A stretch of DNA of 64,000 nucleotides from an uncultured Bacteroidales bacterium (GCA_964469155.1 CAYXXU010000002.1:26365-90364), one strand, 5' to 3'; positions 1 through 62,423 are shown, counted from the first letter of the stretch. The notes: generated from the letters alone by a model not told the origin. A program made the numbers and translations.

Positions 1-1184
1 TATATACCGAATCGTGGCGGCAGATGCGCGATTTCTTTTACGATCCCAATATGCATGGTGTTGACTGGAAGAGTATCTATAAAAAGTACGAACCCCTGTT
101 GCCCTATGTAAACCATCGTGCCGATCTTACTTACATTATTGGCGAAATGATAGGTGAACTTAGTGTGGGGCATGCTTATACCGGCGGAGGTGAAAAGCCC
201 GAGGTGACGAGAATAAAAATGGGAATGCTGGGAGCTGATATCACCAGAGATAATAGCGGATATTTCCGCATCAATAAGATAATGCCGGGCGAGAACTGGA
301 CCGAAGATACCCGCTCGCCGCTGACAGAAGTAGGGGTGGATGTGAAAGAAGGCGACTTTATTATTGCTGTGAATGGCAAATCGGTGAAGGAGGTGGGCAA
401 TATTTACGAATTGCTTATCAATTCAGCCGGGAAGCAGGTAGAACTCACCGTCAATTCAACTGCTACTGACCAGGGAGCGCGAAAAGTGATAGTAGTGCCC
501 ATTGATGATGAAGCCGGTTTGTATTATTATAACTGGGTCCAGAATAACATTGCCAAAGTGAGTAAAGCCACTGATGGCAAGGTAGGCTACATCCACATCC
601 CCAATATGGGTGTGGAAGGTTTGAACGAGTTTGTGAAGCACTTTTATCCCCAGTTGAGCAAGAGCGCGCTTATTATCGACGACCGCGGCAACGGGGGTGG
701 AAATGTTTCACCCATGATCATTGAGCGACTGAACCGTGAACTGGTTTATATGAAAATGTCGCGCAACACCAGTCAGAGTATAGCCGGAGAACAACAGCAA
801 TACGGCCCAAAGATATGCCTTATTGATCAGTATTCTGCTTCTGATGGCGACCTGTTCCCTTATCAGTTCCGCGAACTGAAGATAGGCAAACTGGTTGGCC
901 AGCGCACCTGGGGCGGAGTGGTCGGAATACGCGGTTCTTTGCCTTTGATCGACGGAGGTTTTTTGAACAAACCCGAATTTGCGCATTACGATGCCCAGGG
1001 CAAGAAATGGATCATCGAAGGCCATGGGGTTGACCCCGATGTGGAGGTGGTCAACGATCCCGCCAAAGAATATGCGGGCCAGGACGAGCAACTGAACAAA
1101 GCCATAGAGCTGATATTGGAAGAATTGAAAACCATAAATACCAGGTTGCCGGAAATACCGACTTTCCCGGATAAGTCCAAGTAG
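1..1184 (+). CDS. Tricorn-type / S41-family peptidase, C-terminal portion (5' end outside window)
   Basis: The frame is open from the window edge; residues ESWRQ precede the first Met at 24. The visible 386 aa show an S41 C-terminal catalytic-domain pattern (GGNV...DQYSASDGDLFPY...TWGG) typical of tricorn protease homologues. Family recognised from memory. Confidence 0.8.
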   Translation, partial: YTESWRQMRDFFYDPNMHGVDWKSIYKKYEPLLPYVNHRADLTYIIGEMIGELSVGHAYTGGGEKPEVTRIKMGMLGADITRDNSGYFRINKIMPGENWTEDTRSPLTEVGVDVKEGDFIIAVNGKSVKEVGNIYELLINSAGKQVELTVNSTATDQGARKVIVVPIDDEAGLYYYNWVQNNIAKVSKATDGKVGYIHIPNMGVEGLNEFVKHFYPQLSKSALIIDDRGNGGGNVSPMIIERLNRELVYMKMSRNTSQSIAGEQQQYGPKICLIDQYSASDGDLFPYQFRELKIGKLVGQRTWGGVVGIRGSLPLIDGGFLNKPEFAHYDAQGKKWIIEGHGVDPDVEVVNDPAKEYAGQDEQLNKAIELILEELKTINTRLPEIPTFPDKSK

Positions 1185-1281
1185 GAGGCAGTTCGTTGCC
1201 TGGAGTTGGGAGTTGAAGATTTACCGCAGAGTCGCGGAGAACGCAGAGTGAAAAAAAAACCTCTATTAGGAGCGAAATTTT

Positions 1282-1347
1282 GATGGATCGCAACCCTGAA
1301 TGGTTGTATGCAAACCCTTGACGGATGATGCATTTCCCTAGCGTTTC
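1282..1347 (-). repeat. Solo (2-unit) copy of the 21-bp repeat element that is expanded at 51088-51297
   Basis: The reverse complement of 1290-1333 is identical over 44 nt to 51079-51122 (atgcatcatccgtcaagggtttgcatacaaccattcagggttgc). A further ~14 nt of the head are similar. The copy lies between convergent genes. Confidence 0.8.
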
Positions 1348-1406: not shown

Positions 1407-2171
1407 TTATTTGAACTCTAAAGGATTATGAGCTAAATGACATTCTACACAATTCATTCCATCGTTATGCTCTTTCAAATCGATCTGCTTAATTTTACCG
1501 GAAGGTTTAGCTGTGGCGTGACATTTTCCGCAAGATTCGCGGCTTTGAGGTTTATTTATATTTTTTGGTGATGGAGACAGCACATGTTCGGTACCTTGTC
1601 CGTGGCAACTCTGGCAGCCAATAGATTTATGACTTCCCTGCAACCTGGTTTTATTAATATTCTGATGACAAATGGTGCAGGTTTCGCCCGACACTTGTTT
1701 GGTGTCGCCAAATTTTGAAATGGCTGCAGTCATTAAGGGTGAGTGCGGATTATGGCAGGTGATGCAATAAGTACTGTTTGGGTTATGTTTCAACGAATCT
1801 ATCTGTTTTTTTGGTCTTGATGAGGCTACATTGCTAATATCATGACATTTTAAGCAAAACGCTTTAGAGGAATTTGTATTCAGTACAAATTTTTTAGGAT
1901 TGCGTGTATGCTTAAAAGCCGGACCATGACACATTTGACAACTGAGCGTGGCGTGAGTGCCCGTTATTTTAATGGAATCAATTTTAATGTGACATTTTTT
2001 ACACCAAACGGCCTCAATATTATCCGGGCCCATATCCTGTTCAGATGTAACTGCAGGCTGTTGATTATTGTTTTCCGGTAAATGATTCGGCTTTAACAGG
2101 TAAAATAATACTGCTCCTATGCATAAAATTACCAGAAGGGTGGTTAAAATTATTTTTATTTTTTTTGACAT
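1407..2171 (-). CDS. Membrane-anchored octaheme c-type cytochrome
   Basis: 254 aa with an N-terminal hydrophobic anchor (ILTTLLVILCIGAVLFYLL). Eight CxxCH haem-binding motifs: CKKCH, CQMCH, CLKCH, CITCH, CTICH, CQSCH, CGKCH, CVECH. Confidence 0.85.
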   Translation of the reverse strand: MSKKIKIILTTLLVILCIGAVLFYLLKPNHLPENNNQQPAVTSEQDMGPDNIEAVWCKKCHIKIDSIKITGTHATLSCQMCHGPAFKHTRNPKKFVLNTNSSKAFCLKCHDISNVASSRPKKQIDSLKHNPNSTYCITCHNPHSPLMTAAISKFGDTKQVSGETCTICHQNINKTRLQGSHKSIGCQSCHGQGTEHVLSPSPKNINKPQSRESCGKCHATAKPSGKIKQIDLKEHNDGMNCVECHLAHNPLEFK

Positions 2172-3980: not shown

Positions 3981-5195
3981 CTACAAAGCTCCTTCGTCGT
4001 AAGCCTTTTCGCCGTGTTGGGAATAATCCAGCCCTATAATTTCGGAATCTTTTGAAACTCTGACCGGAGTGATCAGGTTTATTAATATCAGCATAATATA
4101 AGTAAAGATGAAAGCATAGGCTGAAGCAAGCACAACTGCTATGGTTTCTTTCATGAAGAAATTTGAACCGCCAAACAGAATTCCATCGGCTCCGGCCGGA
4201 TTAATAGCCTTTGATGCGAACACACCGAGCAGTATGCATCCTAAAAATCCACCCACACCGTGCACTCCCCAAACATCGAGGGCATCGTCCCATTTCCATT
4301 TATTTTTGAATTGAACGGCCAGATAGCATACACCTCCTGCTGCGATACCAACCAGTGGTGAGGCCCACAAAGGTATGAAACCCGCGCAGGGAGTTATGGT
4401 CGCTAATCCTGCAATGGATCCGGTAAGCAAACCAATGAATTTTGGTTTCTTCTGGTGTATCCATTCGATAATAACCCAGGTGACCGTTGCAAAAGATGCT
4501 GCAATATCGGTATTAATAAAGGCCAATGAAGTAATATGGTCTACAGCGACTTCGCTACCGGCATTGAAACCATACCATCCGAACCATAAAAGACCGCTTC
4601 CGATGGCTACTAAAGGAATACTATTGGGAGTATTGTTTTTTTCTACACGGGCACCCACATAAAATACTGAGGCCAGCGCTGCAAAACCTGCCGTTGCATG
4701 AACAACGATACCACCTGCAAAATCGATAACACCCCATTCGGCTAACAGACCACCGCCCCATATCATGTGGACAAACGGATAGTAAACCAGTATCTGCCAG
4801 AAAGTAAGGAAGATCATGTAAGCTTTGAAATTAACGCGGTTAGCGAACGCTCCGGTTATCAAAGCAGGGGTGATGATGGCAAACATCATCTGGTAAGCAA
4901 TAAAAACGAATTCAGGAATTTTTCCGTTGGTATACATGGAATCCATGCCGACTCCGTAAAGAAATGCTTTATCAAAGTTTCCAATGATACCTCCTGCACC
5001 GCCACTGAAACACAAAGAATATCCGAAGATCACCCACAAAACCGTTGTCCATCCCAGCGAAGCAAAACTTTGAATCATAATACCAAGAATGTTTCTCTTG
5101 GTCGCCAGGCCTCCGTAAAAGAACGCGAGTCCGGGCGTCATTAACATAACCAGGCTGCATGCAAGCAGCATAAAACCTGTTGAACCAGTATCCAT
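3981..5195 (-). CDS. amtB: Ammonium transporter, Amt family
   Basis: 404 aa. Canonical Amt motifs are present: LMTPGLAFFYGGL near the N-terminus and IDFAGGIVVHATAGF. Confidence 0.93.
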   Translation of the reverse strand: MDTGSTGFMLLACSLVMLMTPGLAFFYGGLATKRNILGIMIQSFASLGWTTVLWVIFGYSLCFSGGAGGIIGNFDKAFLYGVGMDSMYTNGKIPEFVFIAYQMMFAIITPALITGAFANRVNFKAYMIFLTFWQILVYYPFVHMIWGGGLLAEWGVIDFAGGIVVHATAGFAALASVFYVGARVEKNNTPNSIPLVAIGSGLLWFGWYGFNAGSEVAVDHITSLAFINTDIAASFATVTWVIIEWIHQKKPKFIGLLTGSIAGLATITPCAGFIPLWASPLVGIAAGGVCYLAVQFKNKWKWDDALDVWGVHGVGGFLGCILLGVFASKAINPAGADGILFGGSNFFMKETIAVVLASAYAFIFTYIMLILINLITPVRVSKDSEIIGLDYSQHGEKAYDEGAL

Positions 5196-13835: not shown

Positions 13836-14118
13836 GTGTGAAATTTTTCTGCTCAGTTGAGGAAATGTCCTGCATAGTTGCAAGAATTTTCTACTGAGAT
13901 GCAGTAATGTTTTACTGCGTTGCAAGAATTTGCTGCTCAGTTGCAAGAATTTACTGCTCAGTTGCAAGAATGTACTGCACAGTTGCAAGAATGTACTGCT
14001 CAGTTGCAAGAATGTACTGCTCAGTTGTAAGAATTTACTGCTCAGTTGCAAGAATTTACTGCTCAGTTGTAAGAATTTTCTGCTCAGTTGTAAGAATTTA
14101 CTGCTCAGTTGCAAGAAT
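13836..14118. repeat. 21-bp tandem array A (about 13.5 units)
   Basis: Units are in exact 21-nt register from 13836. Consensus is ttgcaagaatttactgctcag. The first four units are degenerate and the central ones near-identical. All reading frames are open across it. Confidence 0.95.
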
Positions 14119-49769: not shown

Positions 49770-51008
49770 GTGATCCATAACAAAAGAAAAATCATTAACG
49801 ACCCGGTGCATGGTTTCATTACCATCCCCAACGATCTGATATTCGATATCATCGAACACCCTTATTTTCAACGCCTGCGCTATATCAAACAGCTTGGGCT
49901 GACCTACCTGGTCTATCCCGGGGCCATTCATACACGCTTTCAGCATGCCCTGGGGGCCATGCACCTGATGTCGCAGGCCGTGGAGATGCTTAAGATAAAA
50001 GATCAGGACATTACGGCAGAGGAACAACAGGGCCTTTTGCTGGCCATTCTGCTGCACGATATCGGTCACGGGCCCTTTTCCCATGCGTTGGAACATGCCC
50101 TGGTGGAAAATATTTCGCACGAAACCCTTTCCAACTATTTTATCGAAAGCCTCAATAAACAGCAAGGGGGAGAGCTTGAGCTGGCCAGGCATATCTTCAC
50201 CGATCAATATCATAAGAAGTTTCTGCATCAGTTGGTTTCCAGCCAACTCGATGTCGACAGGCTCGACTACCTGATGCGCGACAGTTTTTTTACTGGCGTT
50301 TCTGAAGGCGTGATCAGCACCGACCGCATCATCAAAATGCTGAATGTGCATGACGACGAACTGGTGGTCGACAGCAAGGGCATCTATTCTGTCGAAAAAT
50401 TCATTGTGGCCCGCCGCCTGATGTATTGGCAGGTGTATCTCCACAAAACCGTGCTTTCGGCCGAAAACCTGCTGATCCATATCCTGCGCCGGGCCAAATA
50501 CCTGGCCGAACAAGGCGAAGCCATATTTGCCGGGTCTGCTTTGGCAACTTTCCTGAAGAAGTGCTATACCTGTCAGGATTTCGTAGCTAACCCACAATTG
50601 CTCGACATTTTTGCCCAACTCGACGACACTGATATTTTTTATAGCATTAAAATGTGGACGAATTCGGCTGATAAGGTTTTGGCCCTGCTGAGCCGCAACC
50701 TGGTGAACCGCCATCTTCCGAAGATTGAGATACAAAACACTCCGTTCGATGAAGCCTATGTCGATGGCATTATGAAGCGGACCAGAGAAAAATATCAACT
50801 GACCGAAGCCGAAACCGCCTATTTTGTGTTTACCGACGAGGTGGCCAACAATGCCTACAACCCGGCTTTCGATAAAATAGGGATGTTATATCACAACGGC
50901 ACCGTAACCGATATTACCAAAAGCTCCGACCAGATTAATACAGAACTCTTGTCCCGAACCATCAGGAAGTATTTTTTGTGTTATCCGAAGGAGTTGTTGG
51001 AGAGGTAG
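49770..51008 (+). CDS. HD-domain phosphohydrolase (dNTPase-like)
   Basis: 412 aa. HD signature LLHDIGHGPFSH and downstream DVDRLDYLMRD. Confidence 0.88.
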   Translation: MIHNKRKIINDPVHGFITIPNDLIFDIIEHPYFQRLRYIKQLGLTYLVYPGAIHTRFQHALGAMHLMSQAVEMLKIKDQDITAEEQQGLLLAILLHDIGHGPFSHALEHALVENISHETLSNYFIESLNKQQGGELELARHIFTDQYHKKFLHQLVSSQLDVDRLDYLMRDSFFTGVSEGVISTDRIIKMLNVHDDELVVDSKGIYSVEKFIVARRLMYWQVYLHKTVLSAENLLIHILRRAKYLAEQGEAIFAGSALATFLKKCYTCQDFVANPQLLDIFAQLDDTDIFYSIKMWTNSADKVLALLSRNLVNRHLPKIEIQNTPFDEAYVDGIMKRTREKYQLTEAETAYFVFTDEVANNAYNPAFDKIGMLYHNGTVTDITKSSDQINTELLSRTIRKYFLCYPKELLER

Positions 51009-51087
51009 TTAGGGGGATTAGCTGCAGGTGAGCCAAGTGGGACCTCAACTATAGTGAATCTTCTGGAATGCTAGCGAGATGCATCAT

Positions 51088-51297
51088 CCGTCAAGGGTTT
51101 GCATACAACCATTCAGGGTTGCTCCCCAACCGTTCAGGGTTGCTATCCAACCGTTCAGGGTTGCTATCCAACCATTCAGGGTTGCTCCCCAACCATTCAG
51201 GGTTGCTATCCAACCGTTCAGGGTTGCTATCCAACCGTTCAGGGTTGCTATCCAACCATTCAGGGTTGCTCCCCAACCGTTCAAGGTTGCGAATCAA
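51088..51297. repeat. 21-bp tandem array D (10 units)
   Basis: Units are in exact register. Two alternating variants occur: ccattcagggttgctccccaa and ccgttcagggttgctatccaa. Each contains the inverted repeat caacc-n6-ggttg across the unit junction. Confidence 0.95.
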
Positions 51298-51652
51298 CCA
51301 ATTTTTGATGAATAAAATAAGTTTTGGATTTTTTTTCGAAAAATCTTTGTACCCTACCATATCTATATTTTTGTTTGTTCGTTTACGAATATAAGTATTT
51401 AATGTGAATTTAGCCCTTGCTCAGTTACCGCGTAAGGAGCAAGGGGTTGGATTTCTTGGTGATTCTTGGTGTTTTGGAGTCTTGGTGGCATTCCTTTGGA
51501 TTTATTGGAGAGGTGGGATGATTGTATGAATGAGTAGGACACAAATTTTTTTGCCCTTACGTAATAACCCTGTTAATAAATATTTCCCTCAGCCGTCGCA
51601 AATACCGAAGTTTTTATAAATTTTGTCGACTGATAAATAAGGAGGCACGAAC

Positions 51653-52693
51653 ATGAAATTTACAGCGCAACAACTGGCCGATGTGCTTGGGGGAACCATC
51701 GAAGGAAATGCAGAGGCCTGCGTATCCAAACTCTCCAAAATTGAAGAAGGCGACGCCGATTCCCTCACATTTCTCGCCAACCCGGCCTACACCCAATACA
51801 TCTACCAGTCGAAAGCTGCCATAGCCATCGTCAACCGCGATTTTGTGCCCGAACAACCCATTGCCATGACACTGATACGCGTCGATAATGCTTACACCGC
51901 CTTTGCCACCCTGCTCGAAATGTATAACCAGATAAAACTCAACAAAACCGACATATCCGAAAAAGCAGTCGTATCCGCATCAGCCAAAACCGGCAATAAT
52001 GTATATATAGGTGCCCTGGCCTTCGTGGGCGAAAACGTGGTGATAGGCAACAATGTTAAGATATACCCTCTATGCTTCATTGGCGATAATGTGCACATTG
52101 GCGACAACACCACGCTCTATGCCTCTGTAACCGTATATTCCGATTGCGTCATCGGCAGTAACTGCATCTTGCATTCCGGTGTAGTACTGGGCGCCGATGG
52201 TTTCGGCTTCACCCAGCAGCCCGACCTCAGTCATAAAAAAATAGCACAGATCGGCAATGTGGTAATAGAAGACGATGTGGAAATAGGAGCCAACACCACC
52301 ATCGATCGAGCCACCCTGGGTTCAACCATAATCCGCCGCGGCTGCAAACTCGATAACCTGATCATGATAGCTCATAATGTGGAAGTCGGCGAATATAGCC
52401 TCATCGTTTCTCAGACAGGCATTGCCGGCTCAACCAGGATTGGCCGCAATTGTGTGATAGGCGGACAAGTGGGCATTGTGGGACACATAACCATTGCTGA
52501 TAATGTGAAAATACAGGCACAATCGGGCATACCCGCCAGCATCACCCGCGACGGTGCCATTGTGCAGGGGGCACCTGCCTTTAATATCAAAGAGTACCTG
52601 AGATCATACGTACATTTTAAAAACCTCCCGAAACTCTCCTCGCGTATTGATGAATTGGAGAAGGAATTGAAAGCATTAAAGGAAGGGAAATAG
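51653..52693 (+). CDS. lpxD: UDP-3-O-acylglucosamine N-acyltransferase
   Basis: 346 aa. N-terminal LpxD domain (FTAQQLADVLGG), hexapeptide repeats and a C-terminal coiled tail. Confidence 0.93.
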   Translation: MKFTAQQLADVLGGTIEGNAEACVSKLSKIEEGDADSLTFLANPAYTQYIYQSKAAIAIVNRDFVPEQPIAMTLIRVDNAYTAFATLLEMYNQIKLNKTDISEKAVVSASAKTGNNVYIGALAFVGENVVIGNNVKIYPLCFIGDNVHIGDNTTLYASVTVYSDCVIGSNCILHSGVVLGADGFGFTQQPDLSHKKIAQIGNVVIEDDVEIGANTTIDRATLGSTIIRRGCKLDNLIMIAHNVEVGEYSLIVSQTGIAGSTRIGRNCVIGGQVGIVGHITIADNVKIQAQSGIPASITRDGAIVQGAPAFNIKEYLRSYVHFKNLPKLSSRIDELEKELKALKEGK

Positions 52694-62167: not shown

Positions 62168-62423
62168 AATGTTTTGGCATCAAAGGGAGCGCCCTGTTAG
62201 AATAGAAAGATTGAGGTTTGAATCCTTGACAAACGGTAAACAAATGGTGGGATTTTTTTTGATTCTTTGTGTTTTGGAGTCTTAGTGGCTTTCTTTTTTA
62301 TATTATGATTACTGACGGGGTGAGCCACCGTGCATGAAAACTACGCACATTCAACCTGTCAGAAGGATAGAGCGAATGGTGGGCGATTGACCCTGATAAT
62401 TGAGAATTCAGAAGTCAGAATGC

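What the first reader, a model, noticed from the sequence alone, without database searches (positions are those of the whole stretch)
51061..51310. Array D and a solo copy at 1282-1347 share a 44-nt identical head: a copy-number-variable element family
Positions 51079-51122 are identical, by my base-by-base comparison, to the reverse complement of 1290-1333 (atgcatcatccgtcaagggtttgcatacaaccattcagggttgc). A further ~14 nt upstream are similar: ggaatgctagcgag versus gaaacgctagggaa.

At 51.1 kb the head is followed by 10 units in total. At 1.3 kb only 2 units are present, followed by a related tail. The same element therefore exists in an expanded and an unexpanded state at two loci about 50 kb apart and in opposite orientation. 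This implies either dispersal of a small element or expansion in place from a dispersed seed.

Each unit carries the inverted repeat caacc-n6-ggttg. Array D also sits between the HD-hydrolase gene and lpxD, which are contiguous in many Bacteroidota as far as I recall.
Basis: seen in the sequence. Interest (0 to 1): 0.62.

Follow-up and report, generated by a model that had tools for sequence, protein, structure and literature searches.

The report
Two-locus 21-bp minisatellite, variable copy number
The 44-base identity is real, but it marks only two related sites of one non-coding 21-base tandem repeat, each gaining and losing whole units between strains, not a mobile element family; its value is that it shows how the unexplained 21-base repeat arrays of this wastewater Bacteroidota group are born, copied and collapsed.

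Summary
Observation confirmed. 51079-51122 (+) equals 1290-1333 (-) exactly; the match extends to 56 nt at 95%. Array D has 10 units in 21-bp register and the 1.3-kb copy has 2.

The "head" is a decayed edge unit plus a variant first unit, not a separate module. The solo copy's second unit and array D's last unit share GGTTGCGA, which no interior unit has. The solo copy therefore looks like array D's outer shell without its interior.

In public wastewater assemblies the head joins only two upstream and two downstream contexts, and its depth is the sum of the two flanks. That gives two copies per genome, with no terminal inverted repeats or target-site duplications.

Copy number varies at both sites. 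One sludge run has array D lacking exactly 147 bp (7 units). Another strain carries at least 4.7 units at the "solo" site, including a unit type found only there.

Relatives at 87% and 83% identity hold unrelated arrays of about 20-21 bp after the HD gene. More distant relatives have a 54-nt median HD-lpxD gap.

Verdict: a two-locus bacterial minisatellite produced by one ectopic copying event and changed by slippage.

The parts
51067..51093 (+). Left edge of array D. Weakly similar pre-head, then a decayed unit -1 (51073-51093, AGCGAGATGCATCATCCGTCA).
   Evidence: Register scan: 9/21 matches to the unit consensus here and 10/21 in the solo copy, which starts with AGGG like a true unit. The null mean is 5.2 and P(>=10) is 0.02. 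This stretch lies inside the 56-nt, 95% inverted repeat I1.
51079..51122 (+). The 44-nt block identical to the reverse complement of 1290-1333. It comprises the end of unit -1, the variant unit 1 (AGGGTTTGCATACAACCATTC) and the first 8 nt of the next unit.
   Evidence: Exact match; 2 hits in the window against 0 expected. It is a separate 44-nt unitig at depth 20.8 in X1, against flank depths of 10.4 and 10.8.
51094..51282 (+). Nine full 21-bp units of array D, in the order 1-a-b-c-d-b-b-c-a. The types differ at GCTCCCC/GCTATCC and at CCG/CCA.
   Evidence: Unitig multiplicities in X1 and X5 fit this order. The number of interior units varies between runs.
51283..51309 (+). Decayed last unit (AAGGTTGCGAATCAACCAATT). 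Its hairpin plus T-run scores as terminator-like.
   Evidence: 14/21 matches to the consensus. The only terminator-like hit in 50900-51700 is GGTTGCGAATCAACC followed by AATTTTTGAT (0.8 hits expected in shuffles, so this is weak).
1290..1345 (-). 'Solo' copy (locus D'): pre-head, decayed unit -1, unit 1 and the start of unit 2.
   Evidence: A 204-nt contig in X14 spans it unchanged apart from one G>T at 1341.
1277..1297 (-). Decayed second unit of the solo copy (AGGGTTGCGATCCATCAAAAT). It shares GGTTGCGA with array D's last unit.
   Evidence: 14/21 matches to the consensus and 15/21 to array D's last unit (read by eye from the two unit sequences printed). In X23 the same GCGATCC unit is intact and repeated (AGGGTTGCGATCCAACCATCC).
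1251..1259 (-). T9 run just after the solo copy, preceded by a weak CCT..AGG hairpin. Possibly a weak bidirectional terminator between the convergent genes.
   Evidence: Read from the sequence. The consensus terminator scan did not call it.
49770..51008 (+). HD-domain phosphohydrolase gene. Array D's shared segment begins 59 nt after its stop codon.
   Evidence: Pfam HD and HD_assoc_2.
51653..52693 (+). lpxD, 348 nt downstream of array D.
   Evidence: Pfam LpxD and Hexapep. About 58 nt just upstream (about 51570-51626) is 81% conserved with the 87% relative L097; nothing else in the gap is conserved.
1407..2171 (-). Multihaem cytochrome c gene. The solo copy begins 57 nt after its stop codon, in the same orientation.
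   Evidence: Pfam Cytochrome_C7 and Paired_CXXCH; ORF distances.
24..1184 (+). 3' part of a tricorn/S41 protease gene, convergent on the solo copy.
   Evidence: Pfam PDZ_Tricorn, Peptidase_S41 and Tricorn_C1.

Best explanation
Array D and the 1.3-kb copy are the only two loci (D and D') of one lineage of non-coding 21-bp minisatellite.

**Position.** Each lies in the spacer 57-59 nt after a stop codon, in the orientation of the upstream gene. In this narrow Bacteroidota clade such spacers habitually hold arrays with a period of about 21 bp.

**What the 'head' is.** It is not a separate module. It is the decayed outer unit plus a variant first unit. These are the edge units that escape the homogenisation acting on interior units.

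**Origin (inferred).** One ectopic copying event placed the same short seed (unit -1, unit 1, GCGA-type unit) at both sites. This was a segmental duplication or a short non-allelic gene-conversion or template-switch tract.

**Dynamics (shown).** Each locus has since changed independently, in steps of whole units.

**Mechanism of change (inferred).** The steps come from replication slippage or unequal recombination between units. In this genome D holds 9 full units plus a decayed last one. D' holds the minimal shell of two unlike units, which offers no perfect direct repeat for slippage. That would explain why D' is the same in six of the runs examined.

**The 44-nt identity (inferred).** It reflects either a recent copying event or continuing conversion between the loci.

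**Function.** No function is shown. Alleles with only two units plus a tail occur naturally at both sites, so array length is dispensable, at least in the short term.
For: **Two copies per genome**
- In X1 the 44-nt unitig has depth 20.8, against 10.4 for the D flank plus 10.8 for the D' flank.
- In X4 it has depth 16.7, against 9.75 plus 5.9.
- X1, X2 and X4 each show exactly two upstream and two downstream continuations.

**The head is decayed units**
- Register scan.
- The last unit of D and the second unit of D' share GGTTGCGA, which no interior unit has.

**Whole-unit variation at D**
- A 202-nt contig in X19 runs from the D upstream flank to 88 nt past the array and skips 147 nt, which is 7 x 21.
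- X6 shows the same path, unit 1 to unit a to tail.
- X4 has an unbranched 93-nt contig reading 1-a-b-c-a.
- Interior unitigs are depleted in X2 relative to X1 and X5.

**Variation at D'**
- A 195-nt contig in X23 has a cytochrome-side flank about 97% identical to the window. It reads head, unit 1, AGGGTTGCGATCCAACCATCC, AGGGTTGCTATCCAACCATTC, unit 1 again, then AGGGTTGCGATCCA.
- The GCGATCC unit exists only at D', so this contig is not a chimera with D.
- The solo form is intact in X1-X4 and X14.

**Array-prone sites whose content turns over**
- The 87% relative L097 has ACCTAAAAAAGGAGAGTCCGC x 7.7 after the HD gene.
- The 83% relatives L009 and L094 have a degenerate A-rich array of period about 20-21 bp.
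- Relatives at 76% identity or less have no array there.
- A 78% relative of the cytochrome gene has four degenerate repeats at 41-48-bp spacing at the D' site.
- Apart from about 58 nt before lpxD, nothing in the gap aligns between the window and L097.
Against: - The count of two rests on de Bruijn unitig depth and branch contexts.
- **A possible third context.** X3 has an extra high-depth short contig that overlaps about 51080-51109 and then diverges. It may be a third context in another strain or organism.
- **Weak population evidence.** It comes from k=31 Logan contigs at 2-12x depth, not from reads. Low-depth paths through repeats can be wrong. The X10 contig in particular could be a chimera or an inversion recombinant.
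- **Uneven similarity.** 44 nt are perfect while the flanks are 65-75% similar. A single old duplication does not explain this without adding conversion or selection.
- **Direction unknown.** It is not resolved whether D copied to D', or the reverse, or whether D' collapsed or never expanded.
- **The period is unexplained.** Slippage alone does not explain why every array in this clade has a 21-bp period.
Confidence: 0.6

Rival explanations
1. Functional cis-element. The 44-nt block, which contains the dyad ATGCA-N16-TGCAT, and the phased CAACC/GGTTG dyads would be binding sites for a protein, or a 3'-UTR RNA module. Examples are an mRNA 3'-end stabiliser or an attenuator between the HD gene and lpxD. 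It would be kept identical at two genes by selection, with unit number tuning the dose.
For: - The 44 nt are perfectly conserved while the flanks diverge. They are also unchanged in the more distant strains X10 and X23.
- Both copies lie after a stop codon in the sense orientation and are followed by T-runs.
- The last unit scores as terminator-like.
- The 21-bp period equals two helical turns.
- The whole-array fold has z = -2.0.
Against: - The head folds no better than shuffles (z = -0.3 and -0.8).
- There is no Rfam hit.
- No RNA runs hold the locus, so transcription is untested.
- Relatives at 87% and 83% identity have entirely different units at the same site.
- Natural alleles with only 2 units exist at both sites.
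- The two upstream genes, an HD hydrolase and a cytochrome c, have no evident functional link.
Confidence: 0.14
2. Mobile modular element of the BOX or MITE type. A head-units-tail cassette would be moved in trans by a transposase, for example the RAYT at 6.9-7.6 kb, with the unit number changing after insertion.
For: - The architecture of head, n tandem units and tail matches boxA-boxB(n)-boxC of pneumococcal BOX elements (PMC3049150).
- There are two copies in opposite orientation 50 kb apart.
- Units carry small hairpins.
Against: - There are only two contexts per genome.
- No terminal inverted repeats or target-site duplications are visible at either copy (read).
- The head 20-mer and the array sequence found nothing in the other collections searched.
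- The head and tail are decayed units, not distinct modules.
Confidence: 0.08
3. Chromosomal rearrangement. D and D' would have begun as an array plus an adjacent inverted decayed copy within one spacer, as seen in the relative L097. An inversion or translocation would then have separated them by 50 kb. The two 44-nt inverted copies may still mediate inversion of the 49.7-kb segment between them.
For: - In L097 the forward array is followed within 300 nt by several decayed inverted copies of its own unit.
- D and D' are inverted relative to each other.
- The X10 contig joins the D' flank to D-type units, as an inversion recombinant would.
Against: - D' sits at the same distance and orientation from its upstream gene as other arrays do.
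- The 78% relative already has a degenerate repeat at that site. This suggests the site was array-bearing before any rearrangement.
- X23's D' array uses its own unit type.
- No recombinant junction is seen in the well-covered runs X1, X2 and X4. A k of 31 cannot phase across 44 nt in any case.
Confidence: 0.1
4. Small repetitive protein. The identity block begins at an ATG. The frame from that ATG reads MHHPSRVCIQ(PFRVAxQ)n...DE*, 78 aa at D. The 21-bp period would then equal 7 codons.
For: - The exact identity starts at the ATG.
- This frame has the best ratio of synonymous to non-synonymous codon differences of the six frames, 6 to 4.
- The edge units differ from the consensus mostly at third codon positions.
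Against: - No homologue was found among 5.8 billion proteins.
- None of the ORFs over either copy is a called gene in the collection.
- At the solo copy the frame runs 115 aa into the antisense of the protease gene.
- The variable sites amount to only 2-3 independent events.
- Of the other four arrays only A shows a significant 3-base periodicity (p = 0.006), and none shows a clearly conservative coding frame.
- Relatives have unrelated units at the same site.
Confidence: 0.04

Closest known systems
Bacterial minisatellites / VNTR loci, in particular MIRU-VNTR of Mycobacterium tuberculosis (the MIRU comparison is from my own knowledge)
   Same: - Non-coding intergenic tandem units of tens of bp.
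- The same unit family occurs at more than one locus.
- Whole-unit copy-number differences between strains.
- Decayed edge units around homogenised interior units.
   Different: - There are only two loci, against about 40 for MIRU.
- The unit is 21 bp, against 40-100 bp.
- This unit is one of many sequence-unrelated arrays in the same genome that all share exactly a 21-bp period.
- The unit sequence at a given site is replaced outright between species at 83-87% protein identity. It does not diverge gradually.
BOX elements of Streptococcus pneumoniae (boxA-boxB(n)-boxC; Croucher et al. 2011, PMC3049150)
   Same: - Architecture of head, variable number of tandem units, and tail.
- Longer arrays vary more between strains. 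The paper reports a positive correlation between mean size and size range.
- Intergenic position.
- Units able to form stem-loops.
   Different: - BOX is a dispersed repeat family (over 100 copies per genome, from my own knowledge) with terminal inverted repeats resembling an IS element, and is thought to be mobilised as a MITE.
- Here there are 2 copies, no terminal inverted repeats and no target-site duplications.
- Here the 'head' and 'tail' are decayed units, not separate modules.
The 21-bp post-gene arrays noted elsewhere in this scan for the same uncultured Bacteroidota clade (notes e1-3620145, e1-1120620, e1-4802666; AI notes, not published)
   Same: Array D is one of five such arrays in this window. 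It has a 21-bp period, lies 40-100 nt after a stop codon, has about 10-13 units, and occupies a site that is kept in near relatives while the unit is not.
   Different: Those notes stress that every site has its own unit. D and D' are a case of two sites sharing a unit. This report also adds direct evidence of whole-unit gain and loss in natural populations.
Tandem repeats of Borg extrachromosomal elements
   Same: Many sequence-unrelated, near-perfect tandem arrays in one genome, with rapid turnover.
   Different: - Borg repeats have no fixed unit length and are often inside genes.
- They occur in archaeal extrachromosomal elements.

Membership tests
Bacterial minisatellite / VNTR | Head-to-tail repeats of a 10-100-bp unit in non-coding DNA | tested here: met
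   TRF gives period 21, 9.4 copies and 89% matches. The array is intergenic between the HD gene and lpxD. No protein homologue exists for the ORF over it.
Bacterial minisatellite / VNTR | Copy number differs between strains by whole units | tested here: met
   X19 skips 147 nt, which is 7 units, at D. X23 has at least 4.7 units at D', against 2 here. The caveat is that these are Logan contigs at 2-3x depth, not reads.
BOX-type or MITE mobile repeat | Many dispersed copies per genome | tested here: not met
   Two contexts per genome, from unitig depth and branch counts in X1, X2 and X4. There are two hits in the 64-kb window. A direct whole-genome scan was not possible.
BOX-type or MITE mobile repeat | Terminal inverted repeats and target-site duplication | tested here: not met
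   Neither is visible at the boundaries of either copy (sequence). The boundaries fade rather than end sharply.
BOX-type or MITE mobile repeat | Distinct head and tail modules unrelated to the internal unit | tested here: not met
   Head unit -1 matches the consensus at 9-10 of 21 positions and the tail unit at 14 of 21, in register. They are decayed units.
REP/BIME (REPIN) mobilised by RAYT | Units are the REP hairpins recognised by a cognate RAYT | not tested
By eye that sequence is unrelated to CAACC/GGTTG.
CRISPR array | Repeats separated by unique spacers of similar length | tested here: not met
   Units abut with no spacers, at exactly 21-bp spacing.
21-bp post-gene arrays of this Bacteroidota clade (scan-internal class) | Exact 21-bp (or 42/63-bp) period, position shortly after a stop codon, and a site that is kept in near relatives while the unit is replaced | tested here: met
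   The window has five arrays of period 21, 41-103 nt after stop codons for B to E. At the HD site, L097 has an unrelated 21-bp unit and L094/L009 have an unrelated degenerate array that TRF scores at period 20-21.
Structured non-coding RNA (any Rfam family) | Match to a covariance model, or a fold more stable than shuffles | tested here: not met
   No Rfam match at gathering score anywhere in the window. The head folds give z = -0.31 and -0.82.

The most novel reading that the evidence does not exclude
The D/D' pair may be a case, caught in the act, of an active repeat-seeding process in this clade.

- Post-gene spacers would be 'array-competent' sites whose content is periodically overwritten by a short seed copied from another array. 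The copy is often inverted, as in L097, where decayed inverted copies lie beside the array. The seed is then amplified in exact 21-bp steps.
- This would explain three things: why sites persist while units are replaced outright between species at 83-87% identity; why all arrays share one period; and why two sites here share one unit.
- It implies dedicated machinery with a two-helical-turn ruler, or a particular repair pathway, not passive slippage.
Probability: 0.15. Interest if true: 0.8.

Novelty: new variant of a known kind. Interest (0 to 1): 0.45.

Why it matters
Earlier notes in this scan describe the 21-bp arrays of this uncultured Bacteroidota clade as unexplained. They report every site as having its own unit sequence. 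This pair adds three things.

1. Two sites share a unit, so array sequence can be copied between sites.
2. Both sites change by whole units in natural wastewater and sludge populations, down to a two-unit shell. Array length is therefore not strictly required.
3. At a fixed site (HD to lpxD) the array content is completely different in relatives at 87% and 83% protein identity. Turnover is by replacement.

Together these give a concrete, testable system: two loci, known alleles and public samples. It could be used to measure rates of expansion, collapse and copying, and to ask what sets the 21-bp ruler. As a stand-alone object it is an ordinary VNTR-like repeat with two paralogous loci.

Tried and rejected
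- **Whole-genome count of the head.** I used Logan unitig depth and branch contexts instead.
- **Head 20-mer in public collections.** There were 0 hits in genome contigs, metagenome contigs and viral contigs. The window's own genome is evidently not in these collections, so these zeros say nothing about its other contigs.
- **Other sequence searches.** The unit pattern gave 0 hits in viral contigs. blastn of the array against plasmids and phages found nothing.
- **RNA evidence.** No RNA run holds the locus, so transcription is untested.
- **JGI metagenome scan with the cytochrome protein.** It returned only one 37% hit.
- **Exact-protein look-ups of flanking genes.** They returned only Logan contigs that break at the repeat.
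- **Structured RNA.** There is no Rfam match and the folds are not better than shuffles.
- **Coding hypothesis.** The ORFs are not in the protein collection and have no homologues. The codon-phase test gave only a weak signal for D and no consistent signal across arrays.
- **Ancestral remnant.** A 12-mer, TTTGCATACAAC, is shared with the L094 spacer (E = 0.03-0.06). This is too weak to infer the direction of copying.
- **Repeat at the D' site in L092.** TRF finds nothing. The repeat finder shows only four degenerate copies at 41-48-bp spacing, so the 'array at the D' site in a relative' is weak evidence.
- **Earlier scan notes.** Look-ups by sequence for the head and for the TTCTTGGTG element gave nothing new.

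Full report
**1. The observation**

The 44-mer ATGCATCATCCGTCAAGGGTTTGCATACAACCATTCAGGGTTGC occurs exactly twice in the window. One copy is at 51079-51122 (+) and the other at 1290-1333 (-). Shuffles give no expected matches even with 3 mismatches allowed. The repeat finder extends the pair to 56 nt at 95%. Beyond that the flanks do not align.

TRF finds five arrays of period 21 in the window, starting at 13845, 30096, 41546, 51094 and 61853. Their units are unrelated. Only array D has a second copy in the window, allowing up to 4 mismatches per unit.

A scan in 21-bp register gives ten units at D:
- eight interior units matching the consensus at 18-21 of 21 positions;
- a first unit at 16 of 21;
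- a last unit at 14 of 21.

The 1.3-kb copy has two units, at 16 and 14 of 21. Each unit carries the dyad CAACC-N6-GGTTG.

**2. What the "head" is**

The 21 nt before the first unit match the unit consensus at 9 of 21 positions in D. In the solo copy they match at 10 of 21, and there they start with AGGG like a true unit. The null mean is 5.2 and P(>=10) is 0.02. The head is therefore a decayed outer unit followed by a variant first unit (AGGGTTTGCATACAACCATTC).

At the other end, D's last unit is AAGGTTGCGAATCAACCAATT. The solo copy's second unit is AGGGTTGCGATCCATCAAAAT. They agree at 15 of 21 positions (counted by eye from the unit sequences printed). Both have GGTTGCGA, where every interior unit has GGTTGCT. 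The solo copy thus equals the outer shell of array D without its interior. Decayed edges around homogenised interiors are the usual signature of tandem arrays that evolve by slippage or unequal exchange (established knowledge).

**3. How many copies**

The head 20-mer has no match in the species-representative genomes or the JGI contigs. This shows only that the window's genome is not in those collections.

I therefore used Logan assemblies of public wastewater runs that hold the locus.
- In X1 the 44 nt form their own unitig at depth 20.8, against 10.4 for the D flank and 10.8 for the cytochrome flank.
- In X4 the figures are 16.7 against 9.75 plus 5.9.
- In X1, X2 and X4 the summed depth over the head is fully accounted for by these three contigs.
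- In those runs only two upstream and two downstream continuations exist.

This gives two copies per genome. One caveat remains. X3 has an additional high-depth short contig that overlaps about 51080-51109 and then diverges. I could not resolve it.

**4. Context**

D lies 59 nt after the stop codon of an HD-domain hydrolase gene and 348 nt before lpxD. The solo copy lies 57 nt after the stop codon of a multihaem cytochrome c gene, in that gene's orientation, and faces a convergent tricorn/S41 protease gene.

HD and lpxD are adjacent on the same strand in 42 of 83 Bacteroidota loci. The median gap is 54 nt, against 645 nt here.

**5. Relatives**

At the HD site:
- The 87% relative L097 has an unrelated 21-bp array, ACCTAAAAAAGGAGAGTCCGC x 7.7, in a 774-nt gap.
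- Another 87% relative has a 579-nt gap with a called 65-aa ORF. No DNA was available for it.
- The 83% relatives L009 and L094 have a long, degenerate, A-rich array that TRF scores at period 20-21, which breaks their contigs.
- Relatives at 76%, 74% and 62% or less have no array at that site.
- Between the window and L097, only about 58 nt just before lpxD align, at 81%.

At the cytochrome site:
- A 78% relative shares the first 45 nt or so after the stop codon. It then has four degenerate repeats at 41-48-bp spacing. TRF does not score them.
- 70-71% relatives have different neighbours.

The head is therefore not a conserved gene-terminal sequence. Both sites are places where this clade keeps arrays, while the array sequence is replaced.

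**6. Copy-number variation**

All of this evidence comes from k=31 contigs, mostly at low depth, so it is indicative and not final.

*At D:*
- A 202-nt contig in X19 runs from the upstream flank to 88 nt past the array. It skips exactly 147 nt, which is 7 units (also seen).
- X6 shows the same path from unit 1 to unit a to the tail.
- X4 has an unbranched 93-nt contig reading 1-a-b-c-a. It lacks the b-to-b and c-to-d junctions of the reference.
- In X1 and X5 the unitig depths fit the reference multiplicities. In X2 the interior junctions are depleted 3- to 10-fold.

*At the solo site:*
- The two-unit form is spanned intact by a 204-nt contig in X14. Its tail junction is present in X1-X4.
- A 195-nt contig in X23 has a flank about 97% identical to the window. 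It reads head, unit 1, AGGGTTGCGATCCAACCATCC, AGGGTTGCTATCCAACCATTC, unit 1 again, then AGGGTTGCGATCCA.
- That is a 63-bp higher-order repeat of at least 4.7 units. The GCGATCC unit is specific to this locus, so the contig cannot be a chimera with D.
- X10 also joins the cytochrome flank to further units. That contig could be a chimera or an inversion recombinant.

**7. Mechanism**

*Shown:*
- There are two loci.
- The edges are decayed units.
- Length differences come in whole units at both loci.
- Expansion in place uses a locus-specific unit.
- Array content is replaced at a fixed site between near relatives.

*Inferred:*
- One ectopic copying event placed the same seed at two array-prone spacers. 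It was a duplication, or a short conversion or template-switch tract.
- Slippage or unequal recombination then changed each locus independently.
- The two-unit shell is stable because its units are too unlike each other to misalign.
- The perfect 44 nt reflect a recent event or continuing conversion.

No hallmark of transposition is present. Function is open:
- The last unit plus its T-run is the only terminator-like hit. The expectation of 0.8 hits in shuffles makes this weak.
- The solo copy is followed by a T9 run that the scan did not call.
- Folds are not significant, apart from z = -2.0 for the whole array.
- There is no Rfam match.
- No RNA run holds the locus.

**8. The coding rival**

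The identity block starts at an ATG, and that frame reads (PFRVAxQ)n. It has the best ratio of synonymous to non-synonymous codon differences of the six frames, 6 to 4. The evidence against coding is stronger:
- The ORFs are not called genes in the collection.
- They have no homologue among 5.8 billion proteins.
- At the solo copy the frame runs on into the antisense of the protease gene.
- The other arrays show no consistent coding signal.

I give this rival about 4%.

**9. Comparison with known systems**

The head-units-tail architecture, and the rule that longer arrays vary more, match pneumococcal BOX elements (PMC3049150). Membership fails on copy number, on terminal inverted repeats and target-site duplications, and on distinct head and tail modules.

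The object fits the definition of a bacterial minisatellite or VNTR with two paralogous loci, similar to a two-locus MIRU. A full-text search found no description of 21-bp intergenic arrays in Bacteroidota.

Earlier notes of this scan describe the wider 21-bp phenomenon in this genome and its relatives. For two sites I re-derived their claim that sites are kept while units differ. I add that units can be shared between sites.

**10. Verdict**

This is a two-locus, copy-number-variable 21-bp minisatellite, not a dispersed element family. As an object it is of moderate interest. Its main value is as a handle on the still unexplained 21-bp arrays of this clade.

Noticed in passing
window 51448-51497 and 62248-62297: There is a second, unrelated dispersed element, TGGATTTCTTGGTGATTCTTGGTGTTTTGGAGTCTTGGTGGC, with the two copies 82% alike. 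It lies 130-160 nt downstream of both array D and array E. In the Logan contigs of X1, X3, X6 and X9 it joins at least four further flanking contexts. Its depth is 3-13 times that of the flanks, so it is a genuinely multi-copy element. No Rfam match.
   Followed up: partly
L097 1919-2296: In the 87% relative, the forward 21-bp array after the HD gene is followed within 300 nt by several decayed inverted copies of its own unit. The arms are 72-87% complementary. Arrays may commonly shed inverted copies. In the window, the inverted copy of D is 50 kb away.
   Followed up: partly
window 51079-51315 (+) and 986-1333 (-): The exact identity block starts at an ATG. The frame from it is open through the array, giving 78 aa of (PFRVAxQ)n, and most unit differences in it are synonymous. 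No protein homologue exists.
   Followed up: yes
window about 51570-51626, and L097 about 2392-2448: This is the only part of the HD-lpxD spacer conserved with the 87% relative. It is 58 nt at 81%, just upstream of lpxD, and is probably the lpxD promoter or 5' UTR.
   Followed up: no
L094 about 4045-4075: The spacer of the 83% relative contains TTTGCATACAAC-GC-AAATGCAT. The 12-mer of D's variant first unit and the AAATGCAT of the head both occur there, in the reverse order (E = 0.03-0.06 for the 12-mer). This may be an ancestral remnant or may be chance.
   Followed up: partly
window 51080-51109, as seen in run X3: An extra high-depth short contig matches this part of the head and then continues as GGATCAATCGATAAAGTTGAGGAGTTTGTT. 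It adds about 90x depth over the known contigs. It may be a third context in another organism or strain.
   Followed up: no
window 1290-1345 and 51067-51122: The two copies are 44-56-nt inverted repeats 49.7 kb apart. They could in principle mediate inversion of the segment between them. The X10 contig, which joins the D' flank to D-type units, is compatible with that.
   Followed up: no
window 13845-14118 (array A): Substitutions among array A's units show a 3-base periodicity, with phase sums of 18, 8 and 4 (p = 0.006). None of the other four arrays shows this. The minus-strand frame 0 is open throughout (FLQLSSK).
   Followed up: no
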